Positions 15,389 through 54,839 of a stretch of 64,000 bases of DNA are shown piece after piece. Every line of letters starts with the position of its first letter. Position 1 is the first letter of the stretch. Made by a program: the position numbers and the translations under genes. A model generated the notes under the pieces. It was not told where the DNA came from. It worked only from the letters and a program-made list of their open reading frames with translations, and did not search any database. The DNA comes from Balanoglossus misakiensis (Eukaryota > Animalia > Hemichordata), in contig CM082592.2 of the NCBI GenBank assembly GCA_040954595.2, positions 1,240,001 through 1,304,000 on the forward strand. The letters are read 5' to 3'.

Positions 15389-16219
15389 TGTGACGTGAAT
15401 TTAGTATCGCCAAAATGAGTGTTTGGGAGCCAGAGTGTTGTGCAGAAAAGAGCTCACACGTACACATTTAAATATGGTGTAACTAGATTGTAATTCACCA
15501 GAAACAACGAAATACAAAAATTATGCACATAAAATGCCTCTGTAGGAACTACCTATAATAATGCGGGTGACAAAAAGTTATGCACTCAAAAACTCACGAC
15601 AAGAACAATGTCCAGAGTTCCCGAGCGAAGGACGACGAAGCAAGGTCCGGCAACCGACGAAACGGCGATTTCCTGGGCCTGGAACGGAGCCGCTGGCTTC
15701 ACGACTGTTCGGAGACGGTTGACGGTGAGTGGACAATGCAGACGTAAACGCAGGTAGGTGACCGAAGTCCCGCAACCGATGGCTGGTAGGCTGGAAGGCA
15801 CAACAGACGAACGCACGCACGCCCAACCAACACGGAGGGTGACTCTGTACCCCGAAGCAACACACGGTGACCAGAGGAACGCTGGAAGTAGAGTGGTGCC
15901 CCCTAAGACCCGAAGCATCGACCTTTTATATGACCAGTTTTGCATCACGTCCATTTCAAACGCGGCCTCAGAAGCTGATTGGCGTACTCGATGTCACCCA
16001 ACAGATGTAACAATTACAACATGTTAATATCCCGCTCAGTTACCTACTCTAACTTGTAAACACCATGTGCTTGTGTCTACTACATGTAAATTCACAGAAC
16101 TGTCGTTCACAAAACAAAATTCAAAAACAAAAGTCGTCACTGTACAGACCGGTGACCATGTAAATCATATCTTGACAGACATGTACATTTGTAAATTGTA
16201 AAATTTTTGTATAGAGCAC
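15389..16219 (-). repeat. LTR copy (3' LTR)
   Basis: Begins TGTGACG on the plus strand; minus-strand TATA-like CATATAAAAGG at ~15922-15932; about 15 substitutions against the other copy over ~815 bp by eye. Confidence 0.8.
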
Positions 16220-18361: not shown

Positions 18362-19185
18362 TATCGCCAAAATGAGTGTTTGGGAGCCAGAGTGTTGTGC
18401 AGAAAAGAGCTCACACGTACACATTTAAATATGGCGTAACTAGATTGTAATTCACCAGAAACAACGAAATACAAAAATTATGCACATAAAATGCCTCTGT
18501 AGGAACTACCTATAATAATGCGGGTGACAAAAAGTTATGCACTCAAAAACTCACGACAAGAACAATGTCCAGAGTTCCCGAGCGAAGGACGACGAAGCAA
18601 GGTCCGGCAACCGACGAAACGGCGATTTCCTGGGCCTGGAACGGAGCCGCTGGCTTCACGACTGTTCGGAGACGGTCGACGGTGAGTGGACAATGCAGAC
18701 GTAAACGCAGGTAGGTGACCGAAGTCCCGCAACCGATTACTGGTAGGCTGGAAGGCACAACAGACGAACGCACGCACGCCCAACCAACACGGACGGTGAC
18801 TCTGTACCCCGAAGCAACACACGGTGACCAGAGGAACGCTGGAAGTAGAGTGGAGCCCCCTAAGACCCGAAGCATCGACCTTTTATATGACCATTTCTGC
18901 ATCACGTACGTTTCAAACGCGGTCTCAGAAGCTGATTGGCGTACTCGATGTCACCCAACAGATGTAACAATTACAACATGTTAATAACCCGCTCAGTTAC
19001 CTACTCTAACTTGTAAACACCATGTGCTTGTGTCTACTACATGTAAATTCACAGAACTGTCATTCACAAAACAAAATTCAAAAACAAAAGTCGTCACTGT
19101 ACAGACCGGTGACCATGTAAATCATATCGTGACAGACATGTACATTTGTAAATTGTAAAATTTTTGTATGGAGCACTTGTGGACA
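18362..19185 (-). repeat. LTR copy (5' LTR), missing its last ~16 nt and the PBS
   Basis: Matches the left copy from TATCGCCAAAATG onward and is fused directly to mid-gag. Confidence 0.78.
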
Positions 19186-20260
19186 ACCTTAAGTGTAACA
19201 CACATCATCCACAGACTGTGTTCTCATTCGTCAATTGCTAGTCATGTGGTGTGCGTTCTTTTTGTGCTGTTGCCCGCCGGGCATCAGTTCCGATAAAATG
19301 ATGCCCACTCACTTTGTATATGGTGAGTTCTTATGCATATATGCAGATGATCGTTGTGTTACAAAACACACATTGATTGGCTTTTCGGGTAACAGCATAC
19401 GTCTTCCACCCTCAGGACTGTGAGTCTCCCCCCAAAACAGTCTGGATTTGTTTTTTGTTGTTGTTGTTGTTGTTTTTTTTTGGGGGGGGGGGGGGTGGGG
19501 GTGACTTACAATCCATCGGGTTATAGACATGTTCTGTTGCCCCAGTCAATATGTGTATTATGACTGTTCAGTATGACACAAACGCTTCATTATGAGAAAT
19601 TTTCTTCTGCGTTTAATTTGTCATTTAGTATGCCGTTTCATCCAATACGTTTTGTTTCTCTGTTTATTTTTAATTGTTTCTGTGACATTAGTTAACTTAA
19701 GGTAGATGACTACTCAACAGTTAGAATATTGTCATTTCCTGATTTTTATCTTTAATAATGCTTTAGTTTTCTTTATATCATTTAATAATACTCCTCTTTA
19801 AGAACCTTTTGTGAAAATTTCAAGAAAATGTCAATATTGTAAAACCATTTTCTCAAAACTTCTACATGGAATGTACATGTAATAACCATGAACTGCATCT
19901 GGTTAGTCATCTACCTTAAAAGTAAACAGTCACCTCCAATTTACAAACGCCCACATATGGTAGAAATGGAGTATTTGAGAGTTCTAAAGAACATATGGTG
20001 GCGCTCGTTTTTTCGTGTGTGCCACCTACTCAAAATCTGTGATTGGCTAGATCTCCTTTTGCCATGGTAACTATAGCTAATTTTCCATACGTGACCGTAT
20101 ACCTTTAACTGGTGATATGTATGACGTTTTATTTGGTGGTCAGTTAATGACACAACAAGAATTTTTTTCTTCTAGATGCACATGAATGTCGTCTTGGTCT
20201 GGATGACTGTCATCCAAATGCCACTTGGAGGAATCTTACCGTGGCCGAAATCGACACACT

Positions 20261-20483
20261 GTGTAGGTTTCAAACCTACACTGTCCCTTTGCTACAAAAT
20301 GCGCGCGTACGGTGTAGGTTTCAAACCTACACTGCCCTTTGCTACAAAATGCGCGCGTACGGTGTAGGTTTCAAACCTACACTGTCTCTTTGCTACAAAA
20401 TGCGCGCGTACGGTGTAGGTTTCAAACCTACACTGCCCTTTGCTAGAAAATGCGCGCGTACGGTGTAGGTTTCAAACCTACAC
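20261..20483. repeat. 50/51-bp tandem array inside the left TIR (5 palindromes)
   Basis: GTGTAGGTTT-C-AAACCTACAC at 20261, 20312, 20362, 20413 and 20463, separated by near-identical linkers containing GCGCGCGTAC. Confidence 0.95.
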
Positions 20484-22199
20484 TGTCCCTTTGGTGAAAC
20501 GAAAAAAGCAAGTGTAGGTTTCAAGTAGTGTCCACCGGAAGTACAGTACTGGAGTATGAGTTTTTGCGAACAAACGAACAGCCGCAGGTATAGGACATTA
20601 TTGGATATTCTGTTGAACTAAGTGCAACTTTTGACAATGTACAGTACTGCTGAACATGTATTATGTTTGACTGGCTTACTAATTGAGCATCTTTGAAAGG
20701 CATCATTTTTCTGACCATTCATTTCAAAATTCGACCTACATTTTTTGCGACTGATAGATTGTAATTTTGGGCAAGAACCTGACTAAAATGGCCGCCTGAA
20801 CATGAACTTCGCAGGCGAGTGTATTTAAAGATATTTTGCCAGCTTTCCATACATAATTTCAGGCATGGAAATTCCTGGCGACTGTGACACAACAGATCTT
20901 TGTAAATCTGTACACAGACAGAATGCAGAGGGTGTTCTTGTATCTGAACTTTATGGAAAATATAATGTAAATATCTGTTGTATTATATAGTTATAGTCAT
21001 GATGAGTTTATTCATTTGCATTTTGAGTAATAAGTGTAAAAATACAGACACATGAAATTTACTGGTACAATGTTCAGAAACACAATTTAGTAATGCACTT
21101 AGAACCATTAACTTTGACTACTATAATTTATTGAATACACTTCATCTTTTGCTAATTAAATTCTACAACACAACTACAGTGTATGTGACTGTTTATTTCT
21201 ATTTCTATTTATGCGAGGGACAAAAAATAAGTTTACTCAAGAAAGAAGTTCAGCTTAACAAACTTTTATGTCATGTTTGGTTTTACATTCAAACAAGCCT
21301 TGAGGAAGGCATATAGTTTCTAGATATAGAATAAATTGTCAATAGTAGCAATGTTGGAATGTATCACAATGAAAATTGACATGCAAACATAAATGTCATA
21401 GGCACTGAACTAAGTAATATCAACTTTAATGACTGAGTGATGGATTTGGCCATGGAGAATTTATCAATATACGCCTTGCATAAGGTATAGTCCCTGTAGT
21501 TACTAGTACCGGTAGTTACTCGAGGCTCAACCTGTTTTTTTTTGTGTTTTTTTCTCTTCATTTCATAGCTTAAGTGGGATATCATTATCAAACTAGTCTT
21601 GGTAGCTGCAGTTCAATGAATGTAAACAGCTGGACTACCACTTGAATTATTTCGTAGGCCAAATAGACTTTTGAGTAAGTAGTCTGTTGATACGCGACTA
21701 CTTGCAATTTTGAGCCCTACGTGTACATGAACACAAGTCGTTGAAGATGTAATGTGATATAATGTTAGCGAATAAGTCCTGTAGCATAGAGTGTGGAAAA
21801 TGGATTAACCTGTTTACTTTGCCATGGACATTAGTCAAATTTATAACATGTAAACAGTTGTCAAATCACAGCCAATCATAATGCATCTTTTCCAGTCTTG
21901 TTCATCGAAAAAGTACAGTCCATCTTGGAAACTTGTCATCATCACAGTCAATTAACCAATCAAATACCTTCGAATATGTACATGTACCCAGTCCATAAGA
22001 AGCAACATGCACTTTGAATGGTTTGTTTCCTAGGATGTACATTGTTAATACTTTAACAAAGGTGGTTATAGAAGTTACAAGACAGTAGAAAAGTTGAAAT
22101 TACAATCATCATCTAAAAGTCTTTTTTCTTTACAAATGTTAACAAGTTCACTGACATACATGTAGTTCAAGTAACAGTTATGATCAAGTCTGAGCCATC

Positions 22200-26459
<4,260 letters not shown>

Positions 26460-26821
26460 CTAAGAGTTACATAAATTATAAAAATCTCATTAGATTAAAG
26501 CAACAAGTCATCGAAGACATAGTTCCCCCCCTAAAATAAGATGTATATGAACAGTGAAGAACACTATGTTTTTGTGGACCTCGACACAAAACAAAAACAA
26601 AAACAAAAACAAACCAACAAACAAACAAATAACAAGACAATGTCTACATATAACACGCGAAAACATCAAATATCTTTATAATCACTCACCTCCTTACCCA
26701 GGCGAGACTCCGTTTACCTGAGGCTGTTCGTTTGTTCGCAAAAACTCATACTCCAGTACTGTACTTCCGGTGGACACTACTTGAAACCTACACTTGCTTT
26801 TTTCGTGTCACCAAAGGGACA

Positions 26822-27094
26822 GTGTAGGTTTGAAACCTACACCGTACGCGCGCATTTTCTAGCAAAGGGCAGTGTAGGTTTGAAACCTACACCGTACGCG
26901 CGCATTTTCTAGCAAAGGGCAGTGTAGGTTTGAAACCTACACCGTACGCGCGCATTTTGTAGCAAAGAGACAGTGTAGGTTTGAAACCTACACCGTACGC
27001 GCGCATTTTGTAGCAAAGGGCAGTGTAGGTTTGAAACCTACACCGTACGCGCGCATTTTGTAGCAAAGGGACAGTGTAGGTTTGAAACCTACAC
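26822..27094. repeat. 50/51-bp tandem array inside the right TIR (6 palindromes)
   Basis: Reverse complement of the left array with one extra unit. Confidence 0.95.
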
Positions 27095-28969
27095 AGTGTG
27101 TCGATTTCGGCCACGGTAGAATCTTGTGCCAGGATATGAATGCACTTGCAAAACTGGTTTCACTGTCGATGGAATAACTTGTACAGGTATGTAAATATCT
27201 ACAACTGAAATGTCAACAGAAATATGTACACCTAAAAAGTAGACACTACTGTTAATGTGCATGAGCGTTTTAAGGTGAATACTTTATCCTTATTTATATG
27301 GAAATTGACTAGATTCTGCATGAATGGTTGCAGACTGACTGACTTCTGAGAATGTCATTCATTGGCAACCATGTTCAGTTTAGGAAAATCACACAATCAT
27401 ACAATCAAACTACTTTCCTTCAGTAAAAAAAACATTAATTCTCAAGAAAGTTTGACTTGTTACTGCAATATACACTATAAGTACCACACATATTCCAATA
27501 GGGTAGTTGTTAGGTAAAACTTTCATAAATTTGACACGTTTTGCTGGAAAGAGTATCTTGTCCACTTTACTCGAAAAATGTTCCCGCTGAAAATGCCTTC
27601 CCCTTTATTTGTTTCCACATTAGCCCTGATTAATACTTGAAGGCCCATTTTAGTAGTGATGCGTCAAGTATTTTACATTACTGGCTTTAGTTCTTGTCTA
27701 ATCTAAATGGTGCGTCAGGTAGAATAATGTGATGTCATTTTATTGCTGTGTCCTGACAAGTGTGAAGGGTTCTGCGCAAACAATGCTGTTTGCATGAAGG
27801 ACAGTGATGGCAATCCTGTTTGTGAATGTACTGATAAATGTGAAGGTGAAATTTGCCGCCAGAAAATACCGATGCAAGTTAAAGGTGTGTATACGTTTCT
27901 TTGTCTTTTAATAACAATAGATTTACAATTTATGTTCACAAAAGCTTACACATGCGTCTTTATCTACATCATCTTGAAAATGTTTGTAAAAATGGTGAAA
28001 CCGCAACATCTGCGATATCACTAGTTGTACGGTCAACTAACCATTTTATAATTGCTGAGCATCAGAATGAATGTTTTTTTCCTGCTTTTAACACAGCATA
28101 TCGCCTCCTTGACAAATAGAAAGATTTAAACTCTTACAGATTCATCCGTTGACACAGCTGTCATCATTGGTGGTGTTGCATGAAGTTTAGCGGCCGTGTT
28201 AGTGTTTGGTGTGATAATGTTACTCATGTACCAACAAAAAGTTATTATTTCTTTAGTTTAGAACTATCAAAGCAGAATCACAGCTGTAGAAATGTTGCCC
28301 ATCAGAAAATTGGGAATTTACCTGTATCTTTCCATACATGCATGAGGCAATGTTAAAAATAAATCTCATCTGTATCGTGGAATCAAATTCATTCAAAGAG
28401 TTCATGCATAGACCTATTCGCGAACAGGGTAACTACAGTGCATGGTGGTATTTTTTGCGTTCAACATGCATGGCGCCTAGTACAAGGCTTAGTCACGTGA
28501 CCAGACCGCAAACTGTCCCACAACCACCTGCGTTATTCTATCTGTGAAGTGGTCTATGTAAATAATATGCCCGACATGATCAAATTTTCCAAAAAATGTG
28601 CCTTAAAGTTTAGGAATTCAAAATGATTGTTTGTAAATATATAACCTTTCTACTATTGTCAATTTCACCAATATTTGATATATGTTAGCCCATGCCTTCT
28701 TTTTTCTAAAAATGTACTTTTTTAATATGTCACCGTGCTCGATTTTCCACAAATTTGGAAAATACGACCTTTCTGGGGCCTCTGGCACCATTTTTGTATT
28801 CTCTATAGGTTGACGTTAGAGGCGCTCTCTGTGGCGTTTCAGCCGGGCTTATCCCCCATACTGCAACCTGCAACATTGGCATGGGTTGTCTTTAATGGGG
28901 CATAAGAGGAAACATTGATTTCTTACATATATTCTGACTTAGTTGTTGAATTTGTAAGTTTTGGTAAAT

Positions 28970-34655: not shown

Positions 34656-36610
34656 GGGAATCCCACTGATACCATTGCCTTGAGTGATCGGATTGCGATG
34701 ATTCATGAGATTGTTGGCACACATACTGATAAGATTACTCAATTGATCCATTGTGTCAACATCACTACGGCTATACAACTGGCGAATTTTACCAAAGCAT
34801 GCATCACCGATACATTTAGTATGACCAGGCTCCATGAAGAGAATCTGAATCTCATCATGACGCCCAGTGCTGGTTCTCCATAACATATAATGTAGTACAG
34901 ATTTGTTCTTATTTCGACCCCACAGTTGTCTGCATGAAAGGAACACTGTTTCTTACCCAAACTGTGATGTGGAAGATGATGATGCAAAATACTAATTACA
35001 TTATTCGGTCCTGCACTTTTCTTACCATACTGACCTATGCAATATCAGCTTCTGTGTACAAATAATTGATTTGCTCTTTGCATACTTCATTACAAACAGG
35101 GGTACCTAAGAAATTGTATTTCAGAGAAAGAAATTGGTCGTCTTGCTCCCCAACCCGGTAGTTCAGAACTATTTTCCCGTCATTCGGAACCCAGAATCTA
35201 TAATTCAGAACTCGGGTCCCGTAATTCAGACCAGAAACGCGGCGTTCAGAAAGTGGTTTCACGCAATTTCCACCATTGAGGGCGCAAACAAGATGGCCGA
35301 CCACAGTGGAAAGATCGGCAATGGTGAGTATTTTCTGTGATTTCTATATATTTATGACGATTTTTGTCACAAAATATATCGCGTACAGTGTAACTGACCA
35401 AGATGCTTAGCTTTGTAAAGTTTCACTGATCAGTGTTTCGAAATTACAGAGAAATCCGCGTCCCAGCTCTTTTACCGGGCAGCTCTTAGTACATGTACAC
35501 TGTATATACAATGTGTAGTTGTCGTACACGTTTTACAATTACGATCCCTAGCAATTACCTATACATGTACCGTTTGAGTTAGGCAGGCATAATTGATGAT
35601 GGCTTATGGGAAGTAATGTATTTTGAGTTTCCTTTTGAATGAGAGACAGAATAAGGCATTGAACTTTTGTCAATACAGCGTAATGGCAGGCCTATGTTCA
35701 GAAAATTTGATGCAGACAGTGTAGATACATGTATGTGACCACAGATAGCCCCTTCCACCTTGTTCATACCAAGTGTGTGTGTGTTTATCATTGATTAGTA
35801 TAACAAACAAGGAAACATTAATTTTAATTTATTTGTTTGTCTGTTTACAAATATGGGCATGTTTGTTTGTTCATTTTTTTGTAAACAGGCTAAGATTTCC
35901 TGGTATGTTAGGGAATAGGGTTCACGTGCAGTGGGATTGGGGTCACGTCCCCTCTCTCGCGAGTACCCCATATTGCAAATGTTTACTTTTAGTACATGTA
36001 TTGTCGCCTCGGTCTTCAAGCAAATTTCAGACCTTCACATCCATTAAAATTGAATAATTTTCTCCATGATTTTTTTTCCTTAATTTCTCCATGATTTTTT
36101 TTCCTTAAATGTTTTAACTGTTTTTTTTTATTTTTCCATAGCAATGCAAGTTCTGCACAATATTGAATGCAGTGAAGCTTTGGATTGAAAGCCATGATCA
36201 ATGCTCATCTGACTGAAGTCTATTCCGAGAAGAAATAGTACCACTTGGATTCATATGTTGTTTGTTCTTGTTAATCAAGATATTTCGAAAACACAAATTT
36301 ATACAAATTGAGACGATGAGCACAGAGAGCAGCCAGCATATTATTTAATGTTTTATCAGTTATTGTTTGATTGTTAAAAAATAAATCCTCTGCCAGTGGG
36401 GTACTACGCCACCTTTACCCCTCAGTCCATGTCTGTCCACTATCACCACTGTTTATATCTAAAGAAACAGCCCCTATAGTATATCTGTTAAAATGTTCCA
36501 GCTAAAGCACACTGACCAGTTTCTCAAAGAGATTCCCATTCACATAGTAACCCCTGCACAAACAGCTGGCTTTTATATGGCTGACCACGCAATGTTTGTG
36601 TAGGGATTAA

Positions 36611-38900
36611 GGTAGATGGAAAGGCTAGGGCGTCAGTTAAAATTTCATTTAAGGTGGCATTGCATGAAAAGTTGTGATTTTTGCCAAATTTTACTTTTTT
36701 ACATAAATCGGTAGGCCTAATACTGACCCACAACCTGACTAATACGTCTTGGCGGAAATGGTGCATAATCACCCCAAAATAGCACTTTTCTGAATGAGTT
36801 CACAGCTTAACAAATAGGTGTCAACAATGCAAATAGCCGTTTTTCTCAGTTTGCATTTTCGCTGCTCTTGACAACTTCGGACTATAATAGCTTCGCCCTG
36901 CGTTGGCCGAATTTGCTCAAATTTTGACAGGGAATTGTGTATGACCCATCCAACAAAACGCTAGTTTTGTTTGTCGATAAAGTGTCCCTGGCGGGAATAA
37001 ACTCTGATTCAATACAACTCACCGTGAATTTGATCAAATTTTCTAAAAAATCTAACTTTTAAACGCTGTTACTCCTCAATGGAAGCAGATAACGCAAAAC
37101 AAAATTAGCGTTTTTTTTGCACGTGTACTCTAGTTTTGAATGACATATTAAGATGCATGATGCATGGTCAACTTTTTTACCTATTTTAAATTTCATGACA
37201 TAATATCAAAAAATGGTTTTTTTCACCCAAAATCGTCCACATTTCTGGGGATCAATAATATTTGCAACTCAAACAAAAGTTCAAAATCTCAGCTTCCAGA
37301 ATATATATGGTTTATGGGGGTTTTAACTTTTTCTTTGATGAGAAATAGGCCTCTGAAAAAGTCTCGACGGTTTCATGCAGTGCCACCTTAAAACACTGAA
37401 TTTATATCTAGAAATGTATTAGAGAAAAATTAAACTTATGAAAAATTCGGGGCAATAAACGTGTAACAAGATATGGCTGGTTTTATGATACCTAATTTCA
37501 TACATCTGGCAAGGAAGCTAGGGAGCCTTATTTGAGCGCCCTCTAGGGGAAGACTTCTCCTAGGCTATGCGCACAAGGACGGGTTCCCCTAGCCAAGGGC
37601 ATTTAAATGTAACTTGCAAACACTGATTCTTGCAATTTTCAGCGATAGATAACCTTGCTTGTTTATTAAAGGCTGCCAAATTATGGACATTTTTGCATTT
37701 CTAGGGAACCCGAAAGGCCAGCGGAAAAGCGTTTGACCCAGATAAATGCAATCCTTCGCCGTGAACTGCCGCTAAACTTTGCGTATTTCGCTACTTTTCT
37801 GCCCTTCGCCATAATGTTATGGTTTTATTTGTGATTGAATTGGTATGCCAGATATTTTTTTTATCATGAAACTTTCAGGAAAGGCTCGGGACATCCCAAA
37901 GAACAGTTTTTTCATAAGTTTTCCCGTTGTGTTTTGGCAGCACGTTAAAGGTCTCATGCCATGCCCTATACAACCACGCGTAAAATCACTATTTGGGTCT
38001 TGAAGTTAACGTATGTTACTATCTTGCAATGCGTTTTGCCCCTTGTGCTTAGATAACAAGCAAGTAAAAGTGGCGGGTGGGCGTGTACCCCTAACCCAAC
38101 TCAGTCGAGTTTTTTCGGCTTTTCGAAGTTAAGCCGAAGACTTATCTTGATGTGGACAAATAGTCTTTCACACCTTCGCAAATCCTCTGCCTGTAATGTG
38201 AGGCAAGGGCTTCCTTTGCTTTGAACACTGTTTATATAGCTTGTCTTTGTCTGTGGACTTAATTACTCATGGACCGATAATTACACTTTACTGTAAACAG
38301 AATGGTACACTACGACATAGTGTACTTGTTTGTCCATATGCAAATACCTTCGCCTGGCTCGAGTGCGAAGTGGCTCCCCGATCACAGGCATGAAAAAAGG
38401 GGACAAATTCCGGCATTCGCGCACATTTTTCGGAACCGACACAGTAGGCAATGCATAGACAGGTACCCTAGGTGAGCTTTTGACGTGGAAAAATGAAAAC
38501 TTTCCAAAGCATGACATGAGACCTTTAAAGTTGTATACAAAATATCAACAAAAACTGTGTTTTCCTGAGTGATAACTTTGAAAAAAATAAGTTTATGCTG
38601 AAAGTGTCCTGTACATTGCTGGAGGGGTTGCTTCATATTAAAATGAATACAAATTATTCAATAATTTGCGAAAACATGTCAAGATTCAATCAATATTTTG
38701 TAAAATTATGAATATTTATATTTAGGCGTATCAAATTTCAAAATTTTAGCAGATATTTTTACAGTCATATTTTTCCCTCACTTTTTAGTTTGTTAAGAAT
38801 ACATGCTGCAAATTTCAGGTCATTATCTTTATTCTAACTTGTGAAAATAAATTCACAAACATTGAGAGAATTTGCTTCAAAAATAGCCTTTCCAACTACC
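36611..38900. mobile_element. Kolobok-like non-autonomous element (TTAA TSD)
   Basis: TTAA|GGTAGATGGAAAGGCTA ... TAGCCTTTCCAACTACC|TTAA. Confidence 0.8.
36653..37387. mobile_element. Kolobok-like MITE nested in the previous element
   Basis: TTAA|GGTGGCATTGCATGAAA ... TTTCATGCAGTGCCACC|TTAA. Confidence 0.82.
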
Positions 38901-41900
38901 TTAATCACATGTGAATGGTGATCTCTGGGAAAAACTGGTCAGTGGATTTTAGCTTGGACACTTTAACTGAAAGGGACTGTTTCTTTAGATATATACACTG
39001 ATACGGATCAGTGGACAGACATGGGCCTAGGGGTAAAGGTGGTGTAGTACCCCAATGGCAGAGGATTTATTTATTAACAATCAAACAATAACTGATAAAA
39101 TATCAAATAACATGCTGACTGCTCTCAGACTCTGTGCTCTTATCGTATAAATTTGTTTTTGAATAAAATAAACAAACAATATATCTTTTGATGTGGCCAT
39201 CAGTTTCCGATAGTATGTTGCACATGAAATAGAGGCAGATAATTGTTTAACTTGGAACACTTATTTCTTTAACAAAACCTTTTATAAATGAGAACTTCCT
39301 ATGACCATTAAAATATTTTTTTGAAAGTTACTGTCATGTGCACTGTCTCTTGTCTATTTATGCTTTATACCTGATTGTTCACAATTTTCTACATTAAAGG
39401 CAAAAGGTGTTTGGATAAAACAATACAGACACATCAAATGAAGTTGAAAGTCTTTTAATTACACAAATACAATCTATATCACACTTAATGTGCTCTGCCA
39501 TTTTTTATTAGCTGACTCCTATAACACTTCAGGTATCTTGCCCTCAACTTCATCACCAAAAACTCCATCTGTCTTAGTCCCCTCACTAGATGGTACTTCA
39601 TCTGATCTAGTACCAACATTTCCTTCACCAGATTCGAAAGAGCTTGTTGAAATATGACTTCTTAAACTGACAGCTTCACTGCATTCAATATTTTGCAGAA
39701 CTTGCATTGCTATGGAAAAATAAAACAAGTAAAAACATTTAAGTAAAAGAAATCATTGAGAAAATTACTCAATTTTAATGGACATGAAGGTTTAAAATTT
39801 GCCAGAAGAGTGAGGCAACAATACTAAAAGTAAACATCCCTAACCCTAACATACCCTAACCTCAACCTGTTTACAAACAAATGAACAAACAAACATGCCC
39901 ATATTTGTAAACAAACAAACAAACAAACAAACAAACAAACAAACAAACAAATAAATTAAAATTAATGTTTCCTTGTTTGTTATACATGTATTAATCAATG
40001 ATAAACACACACACTTGGTATGAACAAGGCGGAAGGGGCTATCTGTGGTCACATACATATATCTACACTGTCTGCATCAAATTTTCTGAACATAGGCCTG
40101 CCATTATGCTGTATTGACAAAAGTTCAATGCCTTTATTCTGTCTCTCATTCAAAAGGAAACTCAAAATACATTACTTCCCATAAGCCATCATCAATTATG
40201 CCTGCCTAACTCAAACGGTACATGTATAGGTATTTGCTAGGGATCGTAATTGTAAAACGTGTACGACAACTACACATTGTATATACAGTGTACATGTACT
40301 AAGAGCTGCCCGGTAAAAGAGCTGGGACGTAGATTTCTCTGTAATTCCGAAACACTGAACCGTGAAACTTTACAAAGCTAAGCATCTTGGTCAGTTACAC
40401 TGTACGCGATATATTTTGTGACAAAAATCGTCATAAATATATAGAAATCACAGAAAATACTCACCATCGCCGATCTTTCCACTGTGGTCGGCCATCTTGT
40501 TTGCGCCCTCAATGGTGGAAATTGCGTGAAACCACTTTCTGAACGCTGCGTTTCTGGTCTGAATTACGGGACCCGAGTTCTGAACTATAGATTTTGGGTT
40601 CCGAATGACGGGAAAATAGTTCTGAACAACCGGGTTGGGGAGCAAGACGACCGATTTCTTTCTCTGAACTACAATTTCTTAGGTACCCCTGACAAACACC
40701 AAAACAAAAACAACTTTTGATGGACTAAGAAAATACAATGGACCAACTTGTCTTGACTGATGGGGGAGTAAAAAATGTACAGAAGACACATTTTGTGAAC
40801 AAGGACTGTGGCAACCAGGAATTTACTATGCTAAGGTAACATTGCATATTCTTCCTGTGATTTCTTAACACAACTCTTATAAAATACTCTCCTTCTTTGT
40901 GCTTTCATGCCATGCAGATTATAGTTAGATGTCAATAACAATTTATCATCTTATGGTGCAGCAAACATTATCTTATTTCTGAACTCCTCACATGTCGTAC
41001 ATACATCAGTTGTGGGTGAAATAGTTTGAACATGAGGTAAACAAGCTTTTCAAATGTTCTTAAAAGTGATCTATAGGTGGCTGTGTCTGTTCACATGACT
41101 CTACATATGCTGTACAAACCCTCTCCTTGGTGACACTGGATGGTAAGAAGATGTGGGAGTGCCTTTATTTCTTCGTGGTACTGCGGGCATGGGCAAACCA
41201 AATTCACTGGAATACTCGGCGATGAATTGTACTACTAGTTAGTTACAATTATCAAACAGTGAAATCATGGCCTACAAATAAATCACACCAGTTGTAAATA
41301 AGTGGTCTCTGATTAATTCATAATCTCTGCATCATATATTTAAGAAAATAAATTAATATAAAATGCTACATATATGTATTGTAAATATTTGTGATCATAC
41401 ATATCCATATTCTAAGGTTCATAGGTCGAATGTTCAGTGTTTACAGTGCCAGTGATTATCCTGATATTTCAGGGTAATTAACATGCTGATAGAAAGTTTA
41501 CACTCTGGAAATATTATGTCTCAGGAAGATCATATGAAAATTTCATAAAATAGTATCTAGGCTTTATATAGTAACTAATTTTCTCAAAAATGTTTTATTA
41601 TATGGTAAATTTTTCTTGATACATATATAAGGGTTAAAATTGATTTCATTCTTACAACAAATGAAAAAGCATTGTGGGCTTTTTCCCCCTTCAAGCCATG
41701 TTCTCCACTTTCCTTGTAATGAGATTTTAGAGACGTGTAACTCCAAACACTTAGAATGTAAGAAATAGACGAGGAAAATTTTAGTAAAGTAAAGAGACCA
41801 TATGTGTATATTTTACAAGCAAGCTTGTCAAAGAACACCAAGAGGATTGGACATTGTGCATGGGTATGATTGTCAAAAATAACAATTGTTGATTCATGTG

Positions 41901-42118: not shown

Positions 42119-44770
42119 ATTACGGGCCCAAGCCAAGCCAGGCTTGGGCCCGTATTGGTTTCGTTGGGGTTTTTAGGGCCCAAGCGCACGCAAGCGCTTG
42201 GGCCCTATTGGTTTCGTTGGAATTTTTCTTTCTTTCCGTCTTTCTTTATTCTTGTGTCAATTCTTTGGGCAACGAGATCTCAGACACCGCTGCAGGTACA
42301 CTTCTCAAACTTGCTACAGTGGTCAAGGTCAATGAGTAGATGTGCAGTGACTTGTGAATACTTAATTAGTCACGTGACCTGGCGGCCATATTGGATTTTC
42401 TGAAAAAAATCAAATCTCAGATCTCAGAAACTACAAGTCAGATCGACTTCAAATTTGGCATGCAGGTAGACTACCTTCTACCCATCATTTTTGTAATTGG
42501 AAATTTTGCTGTCAATGTTGCAGTTTTTTTGCTACAATTTTTTTTCTGAAATCTGGCTTAAATTTCAAAAATCTTCTTCTCCAGAACCGGTGATAACCGA
42601 GACACGGGGTTTGGGGTATGTGGTCACCTAACTGATGTCTATCAAGTTTGCGAAGATCATTGTGATTGGTCGGAGATTATGGCGGCCATATTGGATTTTC
42701 GAAAAACCATAGTTAAACTCCAAAAATCTTCTTCTCCAGAACGGGCGATAACTGAGTCGCAAGATTTGGGGAGTATGGTCACTATACTGATGTCTATCAA
42801 GTTTGCAAAGAGCATTGTGATTGGTCGAAGATTATGGCGGCCATATTGGATTTTGTAAAAAGCAGTGAAAAATTAAAATTCCTTTTTCTAGTGTAAAAAT
42901 TGATAGCATACAAATTCTTTTTATGGATATCAATCGTCATATGACTACAATATGTTACAAATTTTTGGCGATTTTTCACATGACCTTTGACCTACTTTTC
43001 ACACATTATTATTTCTGTATATCTAATTCCAGGCTAACCTATAGGGCTAGACGTTTGGGTTTTGATGCATGTGGATTAGTGTGTGATCAAAAAAATTTGC
43101 TACTTTTCATGACACCTTTGACCTCTGCTGACCTCATTAGTTATGTGCATAGCTAATTACAGGCGAACCAATAGAGCTAGAGGTTTGGTTTTTGTTGGAC
43201 ATGGACCAGTATGGGATCAAAATTTTTTGCCCAAATGTTGGGTGACCTCTGGTAACCTTTGACCTACTTTCGCATATCTCAGCATCCAGAGCAGATACAG
43301 CCATGGCATTTAGTAGGATGGGACCATAATGTAAAGCCACATTTTTGGGTCACCTGTGACACCTGCTGACCTCATTAAATATGCACATACCTAATTACAG
43401 GTGAACCAATAGAGCTAGAGTTTTGGTTTTTGTTGGACATGGACCAGTATGGGTAAAAAAAAATTGCCCAAATGTTGGGTGACCTCAGGTGACCTTTGAC
43501 CTACTTCACCCTATTTCAGCAGAAAAAATACACACGTCCTTGTTATGTCATGAGATAATACATCCGATAGAAAATTCTGTTTCTTCTCATTCATACTGTG
43601 CATATATAATTCAAGATCAGCGCTTGGGCCCGACAATGCTGCTTGCAGCTTTAATTCTTTCTTTCTTTCTTTCTTTCTTTATTCTTGGTTCATTTCTTTC
43701 GCGCTCTAGATCTCAGACACCGCTGCAGGTACAGTTCTCAAACTTGCTACAGTGGTCAAGGTCAATGAGTAGATGTGCAGTGACTTGTGAATACTTAATT
43801 AGTCACGTGACATGGCGGCCATATTGGATTTTCTGAAAAAATGCAAATCTCAGATCTCAGAAACTACAAGTCAGATCGACTTCAGATTTGGCGTGCTGGT
43901 AGTATACCCTCTACCCATCATTTTTGTAATTGGATATTTTGCTGTCAATGTTGCAGTTTTTTTGCTACAGTTGTTTTTCTGAAATCTGGTCAAAATTTCA
44001 AAAATCTTCTTCTCCAGAACCGGCGATAACCGAGTCACGCCGTTTGGGGTATGTGGTCACCTAACTGATGTCTATCAAGTTTGCGAAGATCATTGTGATT
44101 GGTCGAAGATTATGGCGGCCATATTGGATTTTCGAAAAACCATAGTAAAACTTCAAAAATCTTCTTCTCCAGAACGGGCGATAACCGAGTCACAAGATTT
44201 GGTGTGTGTGGTCATTAAACGGATGTCTATCAAGTTTGCGAAGGGGAATATGATTGGTCGAAGATTATGGCGGCCATATTGGATTTTGTGAAAAACGATT
44301 AAAAAGTAAAAATTCCTTTTCTAGCCTAAAAATTGATAGCACAGAAATTCTTTTTATGGATATGAATCATCATATGACAAGAATAACCTATAAATATTTT
44401 GATAATTTTGGCAATGACCTTTGACCTACTTTTGACGAATCATTTTTCTGCATATCTAATTCCAGGCTAACCAATAGGGCTATAAGTTTGGTTTTTGATG
44501 TATGTGGATTTGTATGTGATCAAAAAATTTTGCTACTTTTCATGACCCCTTTGACCTCTGGTGACCTCATTAAATATGCATATACCTAATTACAGATGAA
44601 CCAATAGACCTAGAGGTTTTGCTTTTGTTATACATGGACCAGTATGGGGTCAAAATATTTTGCCCAAATGTTGGGTGACCTCGGGTGACTTTTGACCTAC
44701 TTAACACTATATTAGCATCAGATCAGATAATAGAGCTTGGGCCCGGACAATGCTGCTTGCAGCTTTAATT
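42119..44770 (+). mobile_element. Two nested HINE-like elements, family B (inner copy ~42170-43656)
   Basis: Two consecutive heads GGGCCCAAGC..GCTTGGGCCC-TATTG, two homologous bodies with internal ~135- and ~240-bp repeats, and two tails GCTTGGGCCCG..ATGCTGCTTGCAGCTTTAATT. Confidence 0.75.
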
Positions 44771-49100: not shown

Positions 49101-52100
49101 AAACCGAGAATTGAAGGGGTGTCCCCCTCCCACGTAAGAAATGTTTATAAAATACAGAGCTCAAAGCTGCATTTTAATGAACCCGGCAAAAGCAAATTAA
49201 CTCAACTACCGGTATGTTGGGGAGGACAAATTTAACCCTCGCCGCTCAAAGTTATCATGGGGTGGGGGCAAGTCCCCGGACCTGGGACACTAGATAAACC
49301 AGTCAATGATTGAAAGGTGTTGATGAATGGAGGGGGTGGGTGTGGGAAGGGGTGTCCCCCTCCCACATTAGAAAATTTTGTAAAATTAAGGGCGCGAAAC
49401 TGCATTTTTGTGTACTCAAAATAAATATTTAGTCGTCATAGTTTTCAAGTCCCCCCCTTTCAGTCCCTAAAATATTTCAAATCACCCCCTTACATACCCT
49501 CATTTTTTTCAAATCCCCCCCTCAATTCTCCTGCCCCCCTCCCCCCCTCCAGAGGTGTTTGTGAATGCAGCCTAAGAATCTGTCTTTGAATACGAGAATA
49601 TGATGCTGATTAACTCCAACTCTTCAAAGTGTTCAACTCTTCAAACATGCCTACATACTACATTACTGACATATACATGTACATGTATAGTAGTTGAGTT
49701 ATAATGCGTATTTGTCATGCTTTCCGGTAACGTAAATACATGATGTATTCATGAGAAACTGATTGCCGTGGACATTCGCAACTTGAAATTAGTATACCTG
49801 CAATGCTTTCCCATTGACGTCTGTGCCTACGCTTGCAGCAGTCTGCGGTGCATTTGGCACTGTCTGTGTACTTGTGTCAGAGATATAAATGCAGTGTGAA
49901 GGGATGCCCAATTCGTAGCTGGCAATCTGTACCAACTTCGTGTTCAGCCCTTGTCCCATTTCAATGCCTCCGGTGGTAACCAACACAGATCCGTCCAAAT
50001 ATACTTGAACAAGAGCTCCTCCCTGTATGACGATCAATTAGATAAATCTTGTGTAAAGTGCGCATGCACATTCACGCTGAATTGTTTGCAGTTACTAGTA
50101 TTTTGTGCAACACATTTTGAGCAATCCAAGCCCCTGACCACAACAGCCCAGTCAGGGTGTTAGAAACTGATGACGAGTTGAAATCAATTTTTGTTCACCT
50201 TAATTGCATCATCTATTGATCTGAATGTAAATACGAACGCATAGAGACTTTCTCCTGTCTGACAAAGTCATGGATAAATTCTGCCTCGTGAGCGGAATTT
50301 TAGATAATCAATTTTGTCTTCCCACCTGCATCAGCTGTTTCGTGGTCAGTCCATTCAAAAATTGGAGTGGCATGATAGCAATCCCTTTCTTCAACCATTT
50401 ATGACACCTGAAAAAGTGTTCAACTAAAAGTGGTTAACTACATTCATAGTGGTCAGGAACATTAACATTGAACACCGCCGACTCGGATGCTTACTTGAAA
50501 ACCTTCAGGTTTTCAAATAACCAAGGACAAATTCTGGACAAAAACGTAATTAAGATATTCAGTATAGAAGACACAAAACAAGACATCACACTTGAAATTT
50601 GCCAAGATCTTGGAGATAGGTAAAACATCCACACCTGTTAAATGTACTCATCTCCTCTTGGCGCTTAAAGAAATCACTTTTCATGAGACATTCATCCCAA
50701 CACCTATGGATATTACATTGTTTCACTAGCTGTCCAAAATGAGTCTGGTACCCATCTCCACGAAAATTGATTTCTCTGATCTGAATAAGTAGGATAGTGA
50801 TATATTACTATATATTTCCCATGACAAAAAGATCCGCGTGCAGATGAAATCGTTTTAAGGGATATGATGTTTAGACGCTGTTGGCTTAAACCCCGGTGCG
50901 GAAAGACTGAGGATTCGGATTAACGTGTGTTTGTATAGTTGTTTATTTGGGAGTGGTCGTCGTGCATAATGACTGTGTAATTGATCTCATGTACACACAG
51001 TCTGATCTCAGCCTATTGAAATTCGCCAAAATCTTACAACAGAGAGCCTCGTTTTCACTTCTATCCAATATGGCGGCCTACCGAAAACTTGAAACCTGCA
51101 TGCTGGCATGAAAAGAGGTGTACACGCTTTAATTTTGGATGACAAGGTTCGTTTTCCATCAATTATTGTCTAAAAGGATGTTGTCTTACGCTTTATGACG
51201 CTCGTTTTAGCTGTAATAAATTATTTTGAAACCCTGCATACTGGCGATGTGGCAGTGACTCGATCGTACGATGTTATGAATGTGAATGCTAATTTTTGAG
51301 AAGCGATACAAAAATTAGAGGGTCTTGAGCAGAAGCGTAAATACGGTTTTTCACATGGTCTATGTATTAGCTATAACTGTGCCAAGTTTGGTTTGCCTAC
51401 GGTGAAGCACTTTGACGCGGGGCAGTGTTGAATGTGACCTCTCAAGCATGTATAGGACCTCCGTAAGGGTGTTTCGATTGCGTAACACGGAAACTCGGCA
51501 GATCAAATCACAGTCCCCGGCAGTCTGCCGGGACTTTACACTGAACATAACATTGCAGATGAGTTATGAGACAATCAATGCTCGATAACAGCCTAGGTTT
51601 TGACAATGGATATTCATGTGTTTTAGAGATAAACCCGGATAAGTGGCGGTCTGCATAGACAGTATGTACATAGTATGCATAGTGGTGACTGTGAGGTTAA
51701 TCTGACAATGAAATCATGGTGTACTACAACAGACTACACTGGTCCAACTCTCCTTTTTCTGACATTGATTGGTAATTTGGCAATTTTTAAAAACATTTCT
51801 TTTTTCTTTTTGATTATTTCTAATTTAAGAATTTTATGTATATTTTTTCAATCAATAAAATTATTGCCAGCCTTATAATTCTACATTTAGTTTTCTAACT
51901 CCATATCTGAATAATCACTGTAATTATTTGTATCATTTTCATATGCATTTGTTGTACTCTCTTGTAAATCTTCCTCAGGTAATTGGTATTCCTGTTCTAC
52001 CTCTTCTATCTCTAGTATGTCAAACGTTTCAAAAGTATCCACCATTTCTTCATTCATAATCATTTCTAGAATTGAATCATCTTCACTTACTCTGTCAATA

Positions 52101-54839
52101 TAACTTCTACTGGTGTTTTTACCACTTCTAGTGTTTTCACAGTTTGTTATGTATAGTGGTCTTTATGGAGTTTAGAATGTTATTCCTTCCATCCGTGGCA
52201 TTTGCCATAGACCTCAGCAGTCTATTTAAAACCAGCAAACTATCTCTACTCTTGGAGGAAAACACAAACGACCCCTTTCTCACCATTATGAAAAGCTTCA
52301 CAAAGACAAAGTATGTTGCAGTTAAAAGACTGAAAATGACTATAGAAAAATATGACTTGCATAGACAGACTGATAAATGCCCAATCAGTTACTATGCCCA
52401 GACTGGACAAAAGCCTTTCACTGTCACTCTGCACAGACAGCCCAGACAAATGCCAGTTCACACACACACACACACCCTGCAAAGACTAGACTAAATATCA
52501 GTTCACAAAAACTCTGCACAGTGCAGCCTAGACAATTGTCAGTCAAACTAAAACCACACAGACTACTCCTACACAGACTGGAAAATGCCTGTTCAGTAAT
52601 ACTCAAACAATAACAGTTAATGATATTTACCTTTTTAATTTTTATTGTCAAATAAATACAATATAATATATAAAAGGTAACAACTGAGGAAAGCAAGATT
52701 AATAAAGGAAACTCCTGAATGCAAAAAAGTGTGGGAACTGGCCACCAACCACACCACAGGCAGTAAAACACCGATCGATCAGCACAGACACACTTCTTTC
52801 TTCGTTGTCTCCTGAAAGACAAAGAAACAAACTGTAAGGCGTACGATAATTATTGGTGAAGTTCTCAACAAGAGATTTGAGAAACACTTGCTCCGGCTTC
52901 CACACACACACGACACTGCTGCAACAGTGCACGCCAAGCAAGGAATGATGCTGCCCGGGAAACTTTCCCTCCGGCGCACTTACTTAAAGGGACAAAGTCT
53001 CTCTCACTGCCCTTTTTCCACTAATTATGTTTGATACAAGACACTGTTTATGTTAATGTACATGTGGATATATAGTAAATCTACATTCGACCACACACAA
53101 CTTCCATCCCACTTGTAAGATATGAGAGTAAAAACTCGCCCAAAATGAATAAATGGTAAAGAACGATTATTCATTTTGGCGAGTTTTTTCACTCTCCTGT
53201 CTATAAGAGGGATGGAAGTTGTGTGTGGTTGAACGTTGATTCACTATATATCCACATGTAGAATAACAAACGGTGTCTTGTATCAAATATAAATATAGCT
53301 GCAAGCAGCGATGACGGGCCCAAGCTTAAGCCGAAGGTCAAAGGTCATAAGCGGTCACCCGAAATTTTGGCAAGAAATTTTGACCCCATACTGGTCCGTG
53401 TCCCACAAGAACAAAATCTCTAGCCCTATTGGTTCGCCTACAATTAGGTATGCGCATAATTAATGAGATAAAGTGTAAGGCTCCATCAGGAGTTCCATCC
53501 CTCCAAATGCCAAGGCTGTATCTGCTGTGGATGCCGAGATATGGTAAAGTAGGTCAAAGGTCACCTGAGGTCACCCATAATTTGGGCAAAAATTTTTGAC
53601 CCCATACTGGTCCATGTTCAGCATAAATCAAACCTCTAGCCCTATTGGTTAGCCTGGAATTGGGTATGCACATAATTAATGAGATAAGCAGGTGTCACAG
53701 GTGACCCCAATTTTGGCTTTTCAATTTTAGTCCCAACCCTCGAAACGCCAAGTCTGTACCTGCTCTGGATGCGGAGATATAGGAAAGTAGGTCAAAGGTC
53801 ACCTGAGGTCATCCAAAATTTGGGCAATTTTTTTTAACCCCATACTGGTCCATGTCCCACAAGCACGAAACCTCTAACCCTACTGGTTAGCCTGTAATTA
53901 GGTATGCACATAATTAATGAGATATGCAGGTGTCACAGGTGACCCCAATTTTGGCTTTTCAACTTTAGTCCCAACCCTCCAAACGCCAAGTCTGTACCTG
54001 CTGTGGATGCCGAGATATAGGAAAGTAGGTCAAAGGTCACCTGAGGTCACCCAAAATTTGGGCAAGAAATTTTGACCCTATACTGGTCCATGTCTCACAA
54101 GAACGAAACCTCTAGCCCTCTTAGTTAGCCCAGAATTAGGTATGCACATAATTAATGAGTTAAGCAGGTGTTACAGGTGAGCCTAAACTTGTGCCTTTTA
54201 TTTTGGTGCTATTGTGCTCACTGACCAATAGACAGTCACTGTACAGGACTATTGCACAGACCAGAATTCCACAATAAGACATAGACATAGCTTAACCATA
54301 GAGGTATAATTAAAGGTATAAATTTAATAAAAAAAATTATATAAAAAAATCGGTCGATTTTTCATATTATTTTTTTTTCGCTTAAAATTATTGACAAATG
54401 CTAGGCTAGCTGCACACCAAAGTTGGAGATGGTCGGCCTAACAGATTTTGAGATATGTATGCATATTTATCCAAAATATGATGTGGTCATAGCTTTACTA
54501 TGTGAAGTATAGGCCGATGGCTTGGGCGAAAAAATATGAAAAATAATACTTAAAAATCTTCTTCTCAAAATTGACATGGCCTATGGCCTTGACATTTGGC
54601 ATGTAGAACCCTGGCCATATGGCCCACAAAGTATCTTAACAGAATTTTGATATCTCCATTCATATGCAAATTAGGCCAAATTGAAAATTTTGCCCATATA
54701 TGGTCATCAGGTCACATGACTAATTACACATTCACAAGGGTACTGCACCAGCTCTCATAGCCCTGCACCATTGTGCCAAATGTGAGATTTGTAGGTTCAG
54801 CCGTTTTCAAGATCTAGCTGGACAAAAAAACGACACAAG

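What the first reader, a model, noticed from the sequence alone, without database searches (positions are those of the whole stretch)
20237..27118. TAC-ended, 6-bp-TSD transposon carrying a spliced HECT ubiquitin-ligase module
Seen: a cleanly bounded element (350-400-bp TIRs, TSD GAATCT) whose only recognisable coding content is two open, correctly phased exons of a G2E3-like HECT domain. The catalytic Cys (PIANTC) and the C-terminal -4 Phe are retained. A possible upstream donor at ~26690 lies only ~25 bp inside the right TIR, so transcription may start in the TIR. Established: TAY..RTA termini with 6-bp TSDs match the poorly studied IS3EU superfamily, and HECT enzymes transfer ubiquitin through that Cys. 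Inference: this is a deletion derivative of a mobile unit pairing a DDE transposase with its own E3 ligase, perhaps to degrade host silencing factors or regulate the transposase. It is the best candidate here for an under-described system.
Basis: partly seen in the sequence, partly recalled or inferred. Interest (0 to 1): 0.78.

Follow-up and report, generated by a model that had tools for sequence, protein, structure and literature searches.

The report
Transposon remnant with truncated ubiquitin ligase
A jumping gene found at several places in what is likely an acorn-worm genome has no transposase and keeps only the last two exons of a ubiquitin-ligase gene; related ligases in other animals sit whole and facing a transposase, so the piece is likely a leftover of the element's own second gene and is predicted to be inactive here.

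Summary
The element has 354/404-bp TIRs with TAC…GTA ends and an exact 6-bp duplication GAATCT. Public contigs show an empty site and two other insertion flanks. Two open, in-phase HECT exons keep the catalytic Cys and the −4 Phe (PF00632, E=7e-9).

This copy has no transposase. Its 155-aa HECT piece starts after the predicted E2-binding subdomain, so it is predicted not to work as a ligase.

Five of 6 intron-bearing transposase-linked genes tested share both of its intron positions. No 80–95% parent gene was laid on exon A in the two runs tested, and a full-domain tree rejects grouping with host G2E3 (p=0.009; a C-terminal-only tree did not).

Verdict: likely a non-autonomous IS3EU/GingerRoot derivative carrying a remnant of the element's own ligase. 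I found no paper describing the pairing (Repbase not visible). This scan reported the pair earlier on other DNA (25 notes). The ligase's substrate is untested.

The parts
20231..20236 (+). left target-site duplication GAATCT
   Evidence: an uninterrupted site with one GAATCT is read in contigs of runs X1 and X2 (loose end at 20237)
20237..20590 (+). left TIR, TAC end, five ~50-bp units each with a 21-bp palindrome (likely transposase-binding sites, inferred); ETS-like CCGGAAGT at 20535, ATG at 20556 and a GT donor after 20587
   Evidence: the ETS label is recalled
20591..22199 (.). 1.6-kb non-coding stretch where relatives carry the convergent transposase gene; no transposase remnant; YY1-like motif at 20785; possible minus-strand poly(A) signals at 21007, 21127, 21192
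   Evidence: the YY1 label is recalled
22200..22447 (-). exon B: last HECT exon, C-lobe with catalytic Cys (PIANTC), -4 Phe and stop
22448..26238 (-). phase-1 GT-AG intron, 3791 nt, with (TG)n/(TATG)n microsatellites
22719..25531 (.). nested 2813-nt insert with short CAGT...ACTG inverted ends, flanked by TA; likely an old non-coding Tc1/mariner-type element (type recalled)
26239..26459 (-). exon A: second-last HECT exon (end of N-lobe, hinge, start of C-lobe); acceptor at 26459, alternative at 26451
26460..26714 (-). short stretch between exon A and the right TIR, with an A-rich repeat (26581-26637) and candidate donors after 26698 and 26690; the likely site of the deletion that removed the upstream HECT exons (inferred)
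26715..27118 (-). right TIR, six palindrome units; ETS-like motif at 26770, ATG at 26749 and a donor after 26718 that would splice in frame to exon A (166-aa open frame, predicted)
27119..27124 (+). right target-site duplication GAATCT

Best explanation
This is a TIR element with TA ends and a 6-bp target duplication that sits at several sites, lacks a transposase and holds the last two exons of a HECT gene; it is likely a non-autonomous deletion derivative of an IS3EU/GingerRoot transposon, and the exons are likely a remnant of that element's own ligase gene. Shown: the ends, the duplication, other insertion flanks, the missing transposase and the missing front of the HECT domain. Shown in other animals' DNA: whole HECT genes of this type face an rva_4 (DDE) transposase, in four loci between inverted ends. 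Inferred: a parent of the form TIR > transposase >< HECT < TIR lost the transposase gene on the left and the first HECT exons on the right. The derivative would be cut out and re-inserted by a transposase supplied in trans, which binds the palindrome arrays and makes a 6-bp staggered cut. Any product here (166 aa from the TIR ATG, or shorter from an ATG in exon A) is predicted to lack the E2-binding subdomain and so not to be charged with ubiquitin in the usual way; the open frame most likely reflects the short time since the deletion. In whole elements I think the ligase most likely tags its own transposase (about 50%), ahead of host silencing or defence proteins (about 35%); this step is untested.
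For: Ends and duplication. Empty site in a high-depth repeat contig. Two other flanks joined to the TIR end, one per run. Interior 20562-22560 read as one contig with 7 differences, at depth 296 against 24-71 for seven low-copy contigs in X1, and 794-987 against 74-153 for five in X2; a hint of several near-identical copies, not a copy number. Transposase motifs taken from the PMC10045372 supplement occur in 16 of 80 HECT loci; a profile finds 20 of 80, all downstream and on the opposite strand; PF24764 hits 7 of 7 such ORFs tested; 13 of 49 sequence clusters; 16 of 19 loci with a complete HECT end and 2 kb or more downstream (10 of 12 clusters, counted by hand). Inverted ends surround the pair in L001, L003, L010 and L055, with TAC/TAT termini seen in L001, L010 and L055. 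Of 6 intron-bearing transposase-linked genes tested, 5 share the exon A acceptor position and phase and 6 the donor. The window's orientation fits the same layout. The window's sister proteins lie on four different Ptychodera flava chromosomes, two of them 191/192 identical. All records laid on 25935-27140 (22 in X1, 24 in X2) were 95% or more alike, none 80-95%. Full-domain tree: acorn-worm clade 97/94, host G2E3 elsewhere, joint clade rejected at p-AU 0.009. Fragment starts at profile position 334, after the stretch that aligns with the small N-lobe subdomain of WWP1 (that this subdomain binds E2 is recalled).
Against: No autonomous element with these TIRs was seen; no genome was held. No member of the acorn-worm HECT clade was itself seen next to a transposase: none of the transposase-linked loci falls inside that clade, and none of the named hits among the 120 transposases listed (of 2083) was from an acorn worm, most being unnamed. 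On the 156 C-terminal columns alone, a clade of acorn-worm proteins plus host G2E3 was not rejected and scored higher than the quick free tree (p-AU 0.73). 60 of 80 loci show no transposase, mostly short contigs, but L022 and L049 have 2 kb or more downstream without one. The flanks of L055 do not form a 6-bp duplication. Eight of the 20 profile hits were used to build the profile. Host G2E3 intron positions were not checked, so shared introns do not exclude a host source.
Confidence: 0.8

Rival explanations
1. Pack-type capture: a non-autonomous TIR element picked up the last two exons of a host (domesticated) G2E3-like gene, as GingerRoot elements do with gene fragments.
For: 22 of 77 intact GingerRoots carry host gene fragments with introns, often without a transposase (PMC6839031 Results part 1). 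The acorn-worm clade roughly follows the species tree and was not seen beside a transposase. The C-terminal-only test does not reject grouping with host G2E3.
Against: Captured fragments in that paper are 79-98% identical to a parent gene; no record between 80 and 95% was laid on exon A, and the closest database proteins are 65-69% identical to exon B. This HECT type is convergent with an IS3EU transposase in 16 of 19 informative loci, and the ends here are IS3EU-type. Near-identical sister copies lie on different P. flava chromosomes.
Confidence: 0.12
2. The derivative is an expressed, selected regulator: a promoter and start exon in the TIR drive a 166-aa HECT half that competes with the whole ligase or binds ubiquitin, much as deleted P elements make repressors (analogy recalled).
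For: The TIR ATG (26749) and the donor after 26718 splice in frame to exons A and B with no stop; both TIRs end just after this donor; CpG observed/expected is above 1 in the TIRs with an ETS-like motif. All invariant columns of the family alignment that fall in the fragment are kept, and the one exon difference seen in the contigs is synonymous.
Against: An in-frame join has a 1-in-3 chance. The donor after 26690 fits the consensus better (8 of 9 against 7 of 9) and would leave the ATG frame closed. Copies are about 99.7% alike, too young for an open frame to show selection.
Confidence: 0.06
3. The element belongs to another 6-bp-duplication superfamily (Ginger2/TDD, Polinton, an LTR element) or is an assembly artefact.
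For: Those groups also make 6-bp duplications (PMC6839031). No transposase here fixes the superfamily.
Against: TA..TA termini are given as constant for complete IS3EU families. The HECT cargo ties it to rva_4 units. Public contigs reproduce the interior, both TIR inner ends, the empty site and other flanks, although these runs may be the source sample.
Confidence: 0.02

Closest known systems
IS3EU/GingerRoot superfamily of DNA transposons (Repbase; PMC10045372 passages and supplement passages; PMC6839031 abstract, Results part 1 of 3 and section 21)
   Same: TA..TA termini, 6-bp duplication, TIRs, size within the 3.9-12.9 kb given for GingerRoot, likely acorn-worm host (the supplement lists IS3EU-1_SK and IS3EU-2_SK transposases; reading SK as Saccoglossus is recalled).
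   Different: No transposase in this copy; TIRs of 354-404 bp with palindrome arrays against 100-150 bp in GingerRoot; HECT exons, a word absent from the main text of both papers.
Rust-fungus IS3EU families with transposase, TET/JBP and alpha-kinase genes (PMC12730594, passages)
   Same: 6-bp duplication, TAYGG..CCRTA ends, and a protein-modifying second gene in opposite orientation to the transposase.
   Different: The second gene is an alpha-kinase there and a HECT ligase here; the window's ends read TACCG.
[quoted passage not shown]
   Same: Same divergent HECT type; closest proteins are P. flava and Glandiceps talaboti G2E3-like entries at 56-67% over the spliced piece.
   Different: That paper treats them as fast-evolving host genes ('transpos' occurs 0 times). 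Host G2E3 has PHD-like fingers and, per that paper, a non-functional HECT; the window has no fingers and keeps the Cys. I did not test whether the window's clade equals GL-Metazoa.
Fish NHRE3, a G2E3-like HECT without PHD fingers (PMC13623101, passages)
   Same: A PHD-less G2E3-like HECT protein, reported to promote K48 ubiquitination of ISG15, which suggests whole domains of this broad type can be active.
   Different: Host gene with an NHR domain and a whole HECT; no transposon link in the text; its sequence was not compared here.

Membership tests
IS3EU/GingerRoot | TA..TA termini | tested here: met
   TACCG...CGGTA; criterion from PMC10045372
IS3EU/GingerRoot | 6-bp target-site duplication | tested here: met
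   GAATCT on both sides; one copy at the empty site
IS3EU/GingerRoot | terminal inverted repeats | tested here: met
   354/404 nt, 2 mismatches; longer than GingerRoot's 100-150 bp
IS3EU/GingerRoot, autonomous element | integrase-type DDE transposase gene in the element | tested here: not met
   no profile hit in the window; tblastn with 8 and with 120 transposases gave only scattered matches at E 0.027 or weaker. Not filed as autonomous.
IS3EU/GingerRoot, non-autonomous derivative | ends shared with an autonomous IS3EU element in the same genome | not testable with these tools
   no genome held; 28 of 45 Repbase IS3EU families are non-autonomous
HECT E3 ligase | PF00632 domain match | tested here: met
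   E=7.3e-9 over profile 231-304 of 306
HECT E3 ligase | catalytic Cys and C-terminal -4 Phe | tested here: met
   PIANTC aligns with the catalytic-Cys motif of WWP1 and AREL1 through the family profile; the role of the -4 Phe is recalled
HECT E3 ligase | whole N-lobe with the E2-binding surface | tested here: not met
   only profile 334-485 of 486 present; no further HECT exon anywhere in the window; N-lobe as E2 interface per PMC9547173
HECT E3 ligase | ubiquitin thioester formation | not testable with these tools
   bench assay needed
host G2E3 | N-terminal PHD/RING-like fingers | tested here: not met
   no such exon found in the element; absent from the sister proteins P0003, P0008, P0178, P0277
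host G2E3 | one clade with vertebrate G2E3 | tested here: not met
   rejected on 385 columns, p-AU 0.009; not rejected on 156 C-terminal columns, p-AU 0.73
gene-fragment-capturing (Pack-type) GingerRoot | parent host gene 79-98% identical in the same genome | tested here: inconclusive
   none laid at 80-95% on exon A in two runs, but contigs are filtered, and a parent over 95% alike could join at the skipped A-rich repeat

The most novel reading that the evidence does not exclude
The 'G2E3-like' HECT ligases scattered through animal genome annotations are the standing second gene of IS3EU transposons, a ubiquitin ligase that restrains its own transposase. Vertebrate G2E3 took its dead HECT domain from such an element: in the tree it is sister to PHD-less fish proteins, one of which has four copies at 90% or more on four chromosomes of one species. 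This copy is a parasite of that system that has shed both the transposase and the working ligase.
Probability: 0.25. Interest if true: 0.75.

Novelty: new variant of a known kind. Interest (0 to 1): 0.47.

Why it matters
The copy itself is a broken, non-autonomous element and a poor subject for biochemistry. What it points to matters more: a DNA transposon lineage whose regular second gene is a HECT ubiquitin ligase. If that holds, many genes annotated as 'G2/M phase-specific E3 ligase-like' in fish and invertebrates are transposon genes, which would change counts of host E3 ligases, explain the fast-evolving class IV HECT families, and offer an origin for the inactive HECT domain of vertebrate G2E3. 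It also makes a question testable: whether a transposon sets its transposase level by ubiquitination.

Tried and rejected
No whole genome was held, so copies could not be listed. No RNA holder was listed; this says nothing about expression. Only 19700-22560 and 25935-27140 were laid on contigs; the intron with the nested insert was not, so whether other copies hold it is open. Depth steps in X2 (987 to 804 near 20895; 952 to 526 near 26387) could mark longer or different copies, but X1 shows no break there and the loose-end table was cut (630 rows not shown): no inference drawn. An early reading that far more elements share the TIR than the interior was dropped: single contigs on the non-repeated inner TIR have depth 467 (X1) and 1327 (X2), under twice the interior depth for two TIRs per element. 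Viral contigs gave no relative of the HECT or of the transposase. A transposase search meant to find an acorn-worm neighbour gave none among the named hits in 120 listed of 2083: inconclusive. The first careful tree did not finish and the quick tree stood in. Eight other ORFs inside the element gave no Pfam match above cut-off. Look-ups of earlier findings by the TIR and by exon B found nothing. No structure or complex was predicted. dN/dS was not computed: no DNA of close relatives, and one exon difference among copies. Literature: seven searches (7, 9 and 56 seen only as listings of 20 of 56, 30 of 50 and 12 of 241) and term searches in four transposon papers found no description of a HECT gene in IS3EU; two searches returned 0 papers, two whose titles are off the subject (not read). 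Repbase entries, subscription papers and the GingerRoot supplement (its list of captured genes) were not seen and may describe it.
Full report
Observation. The element runs from 20237 to 27118. Its left TIR (354 nt) and right TIR (404 nt, one extra 50-bp unit) differ at two aligned bases, begin TACCGTGG and are flanked by GAATCT on both sides. Each TIR is an array of ~50-bp units around a 21-bp palindrome, five left and six right. On the minus strand, exon A (26459-26239) and exon B (22447-22200) join through a phase-1 GT-AG intron into 155 open codons ending in a stop. The exon B frame hits PF00632 (E=7.3e-9). The spliced piece is 56-67% identical to G2E3-like proteins of Ptychodera flava, Glandiceps talaboti and Saccoglossus kowalevskii, so the host is likely an acorn worm (inference). 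PIANTC and the -4 Phe are present. A 2813-nt insert with short inverted ends and TA flanks fills most of the intron.

Is it mobile? No genome was held. Two public DNA runs of one sample hold the stretch; they may be the assembly's source and are not independent. In both, a contig runs along the left flank and continues into the right-flank sequence over a single GAATCT; the X1 contig has depth 2883, so the target is a high-copy repeat and the duplication was made on insertion. Two further flanks join the TIR end, one in each run. The stretch 20562-22560 is one X1 contig with 7 differences at depth 296, against 24-71 for seven low-copy contigs; X2 gives 794-987 against 74-153 for five. The tool warns that depth is no copy number, so I take this only as a hint of several near-identical copies. 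All 22 and 24 records laid on 25935-27140 at an 80% threshold were 95% or more alike: no diverged parent of exon A appeared.

What is missing. A transposase profile finds nothing in the window, and tblastn with 8 and then 120 transposases gives only scattered matches at E 0.027 or weaker. Eight relatives find no HECT exon other than A and B. The piece covers positions 334-485 of a 486-position family profile. Against WWP1 and AREL1, position 334 falls just after the stretch that forms the small N-lobe subdomain. That the N-lobe carries the E2 interface is stated in PMC9547173 (passages); its assignment to the small subdomain is recalled. The product is therefore predicted not to recruit E2.

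Whose gene is it? A scan of metagenome contigs with a 10-protein alignment confirmed 139 relatives among 597 pattern matches and kept the best 80 loci. Transposase motifs read from the supplement of PMC10045372 (passages) occur in 16 of 80. A profile built from 8 of those ORFs finds 20 of 80, every one downstream of the HECT gene and on the opposite strand; PF24764 rva_4 hits all 7 ORFs tested. The 80 loci fall into 49 clusters, 13 with a transposase. Of 40 loci with a complete HECT end, 19 have 2 kb or more downstream and 16 of these hold the transposase; the misses are L022 (a different transposase type), L049, and L061 (same cluster as the positive L059). Inverted ends surround the pair in L001, L003, L010 and L055; TAC or TAT termini are seen in L001, L010 and L055, and L001 and L010 have repeat-array TIRs like the window's. 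L055's flanks do not form a duplication. Five of six intron-bearing transposase-linked genes tested share the acceptor position and phase of exon A and all six share its donor. The window fits this layout: the HECT gene reads inward from the right TIR and ends 1.6 kb short of the left TIR, where the transposase would lie.

Trees. On 385 columns (52 rows, chosen from the proteins held plus 11 transposase-linked loci; LG+G4) the window lies in an acorn-worm clade (97/94); host G2E3 with PHD-like fingers forms its own clade (99/97 against the other groups), sister to PHD-less fish proteins. Acorn-worm plus host G2E3 is rejected (p-AU 0.009); acorn-worm plus nine transposase-linked rows and their kin is not (p-AU 0.275; that group was named after seeing the tree). 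Against my reading: on 156 C-terminal columns the acorn-worm plus host grouping was not rejected and scored higher than the quick free tree (p-AU 0.73), and no member of the acorn-worm clade was itself seen beside a transposase. For it: that clade sits on four P. flava chromosomes, with one pair 191/192 identical. The trees have no outgroup, so the direction between transposon and host G2E3 is not shown.

Possible expression. Both TIRs hold an ETS-like motif, an ATG and a GT donor, and their likeness ends just after the donor (motif names recalled). On the right this ATG and donor would splice in frame to exons A and B, giving 166 open codons. In L001 and L003 both the HECT-side ORF and the transposase begin with a zinc-ribbon-like Cys pattern, a thin hint that the two proteins are built to meet.

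Mechanism. Shown: ends, duplication, empty site, other flanks, loss of transposase and of the front of the HECT domain, and the convergent pair in relatives. Inferred: two internal deletions from a TIR > transposase >< HECT < TIR parent; movement in trans by an IS3EU transposase binding the palindrome arrays; no ligase activity from this copy. Confidence 0.8. For whole elements I lean to ubiquitination of the element's own transposase (about 50%) over host silencing or defence proteins (about 35%); neither was tested.

Comparison with what is known. TA..TA ends and 6-bp duplications define IS3EU/GingerRoot; 17 of 45 Repbase families are autonomous (PMC10045372, passages). GingerRoots capture host gene fragments at 79-98% identity to a parent (PMC6839031, abstract, Results part 1 of 3 and section 21). 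Rust-fungus IS3EU carry an alpha-kinase opposite the transposase (PMC12730594, passages). G2E3, GL-Metazoa and GL-Bikonta are described as divergent host HECT families, with mammalian G2E3's HECT non-functional (PMC3673628, passages; the primary paper was not read). A PHD-less fish relative is reported as an active ligase (PMC13623101, passages). 'HECT' does not occur in the main text of four transposon papers, and searches found no paper on the pairing; Repbase and the GingerRoot supplement were not seen. This scan has 25 earlier notes in at least 15 genomes with these words, 8 shown, one from this genome; they are unchecked leads, and the counts above are my own.

Verdict. A real, young, non-autonomous element of IS3EU type carrying a truncated remnant of a ligase gene that is likely the lineage's own. 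New variant of a known kind; interest 0.47, carried by the transposase-ligase pairing and not by this copy.

Noticed in passing
window 35097-40691: A second young TIR element: arms of about 690 nt at 98%, ends CAGGGG...CCCCTG, ACAAA on both sides (a possible 5-bp duplication), YY1-like motifs at 35290 and 40498.
   Followed up: no
window 15405-15704 and 18362-18661: Identical direct repeats of 300 nt or more, 2957 nt apart, with a further identical match at 16108/19065; an LTR-type element or a recent tandem duplication.
   Followed up: no
window 22719-25531: Nested insert in the HECT intron, inside a (TATG)n run; holds a 75-nt internal repeat and a weak match to 49685-49793; no Pfam match above cut-off in the ORFs tested.
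   Followed up: partly
window 42225-44719 and 53335-54204: Related composite tandem repeats (155-, 238- and 1433-nt periods) in opposite orientations.
   Followed up: no
window 19890-20180 and the insertion site: The element sits in very high-copy repeats; summed contig depth reaches 400,000 at 19988-20083.
   Followed up: partly
proteins P0010, P0406, P0407, P0408: Cololabis saira has four G2E3-like proteins in one 90% cluster on four different chromosomes; P0010 lies in the group sister to host G2E3, which fits a transposon origin of the G2E3 HECT domain.
   Followed up: partly
proteins P0178, P0032, P0034, P0042, P0131: This HECT type occurs behind SH3, CARD-caspase, SIX1/UBX, UBX and RING domains in gene models; some may be model fusions, others captured targeting domains.
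   Followed up: no
L001:779-1393 and L001:4333-5520; L003: The HECT-side ORF and the transposase both start with a zinc-ribbon-like Cys pattern.
   Followed up: partly
window 20895 and 26387 (run X2): Contig breaks with depth steps that X1 does not show; could mark longer or different copies.
   Followed up: no
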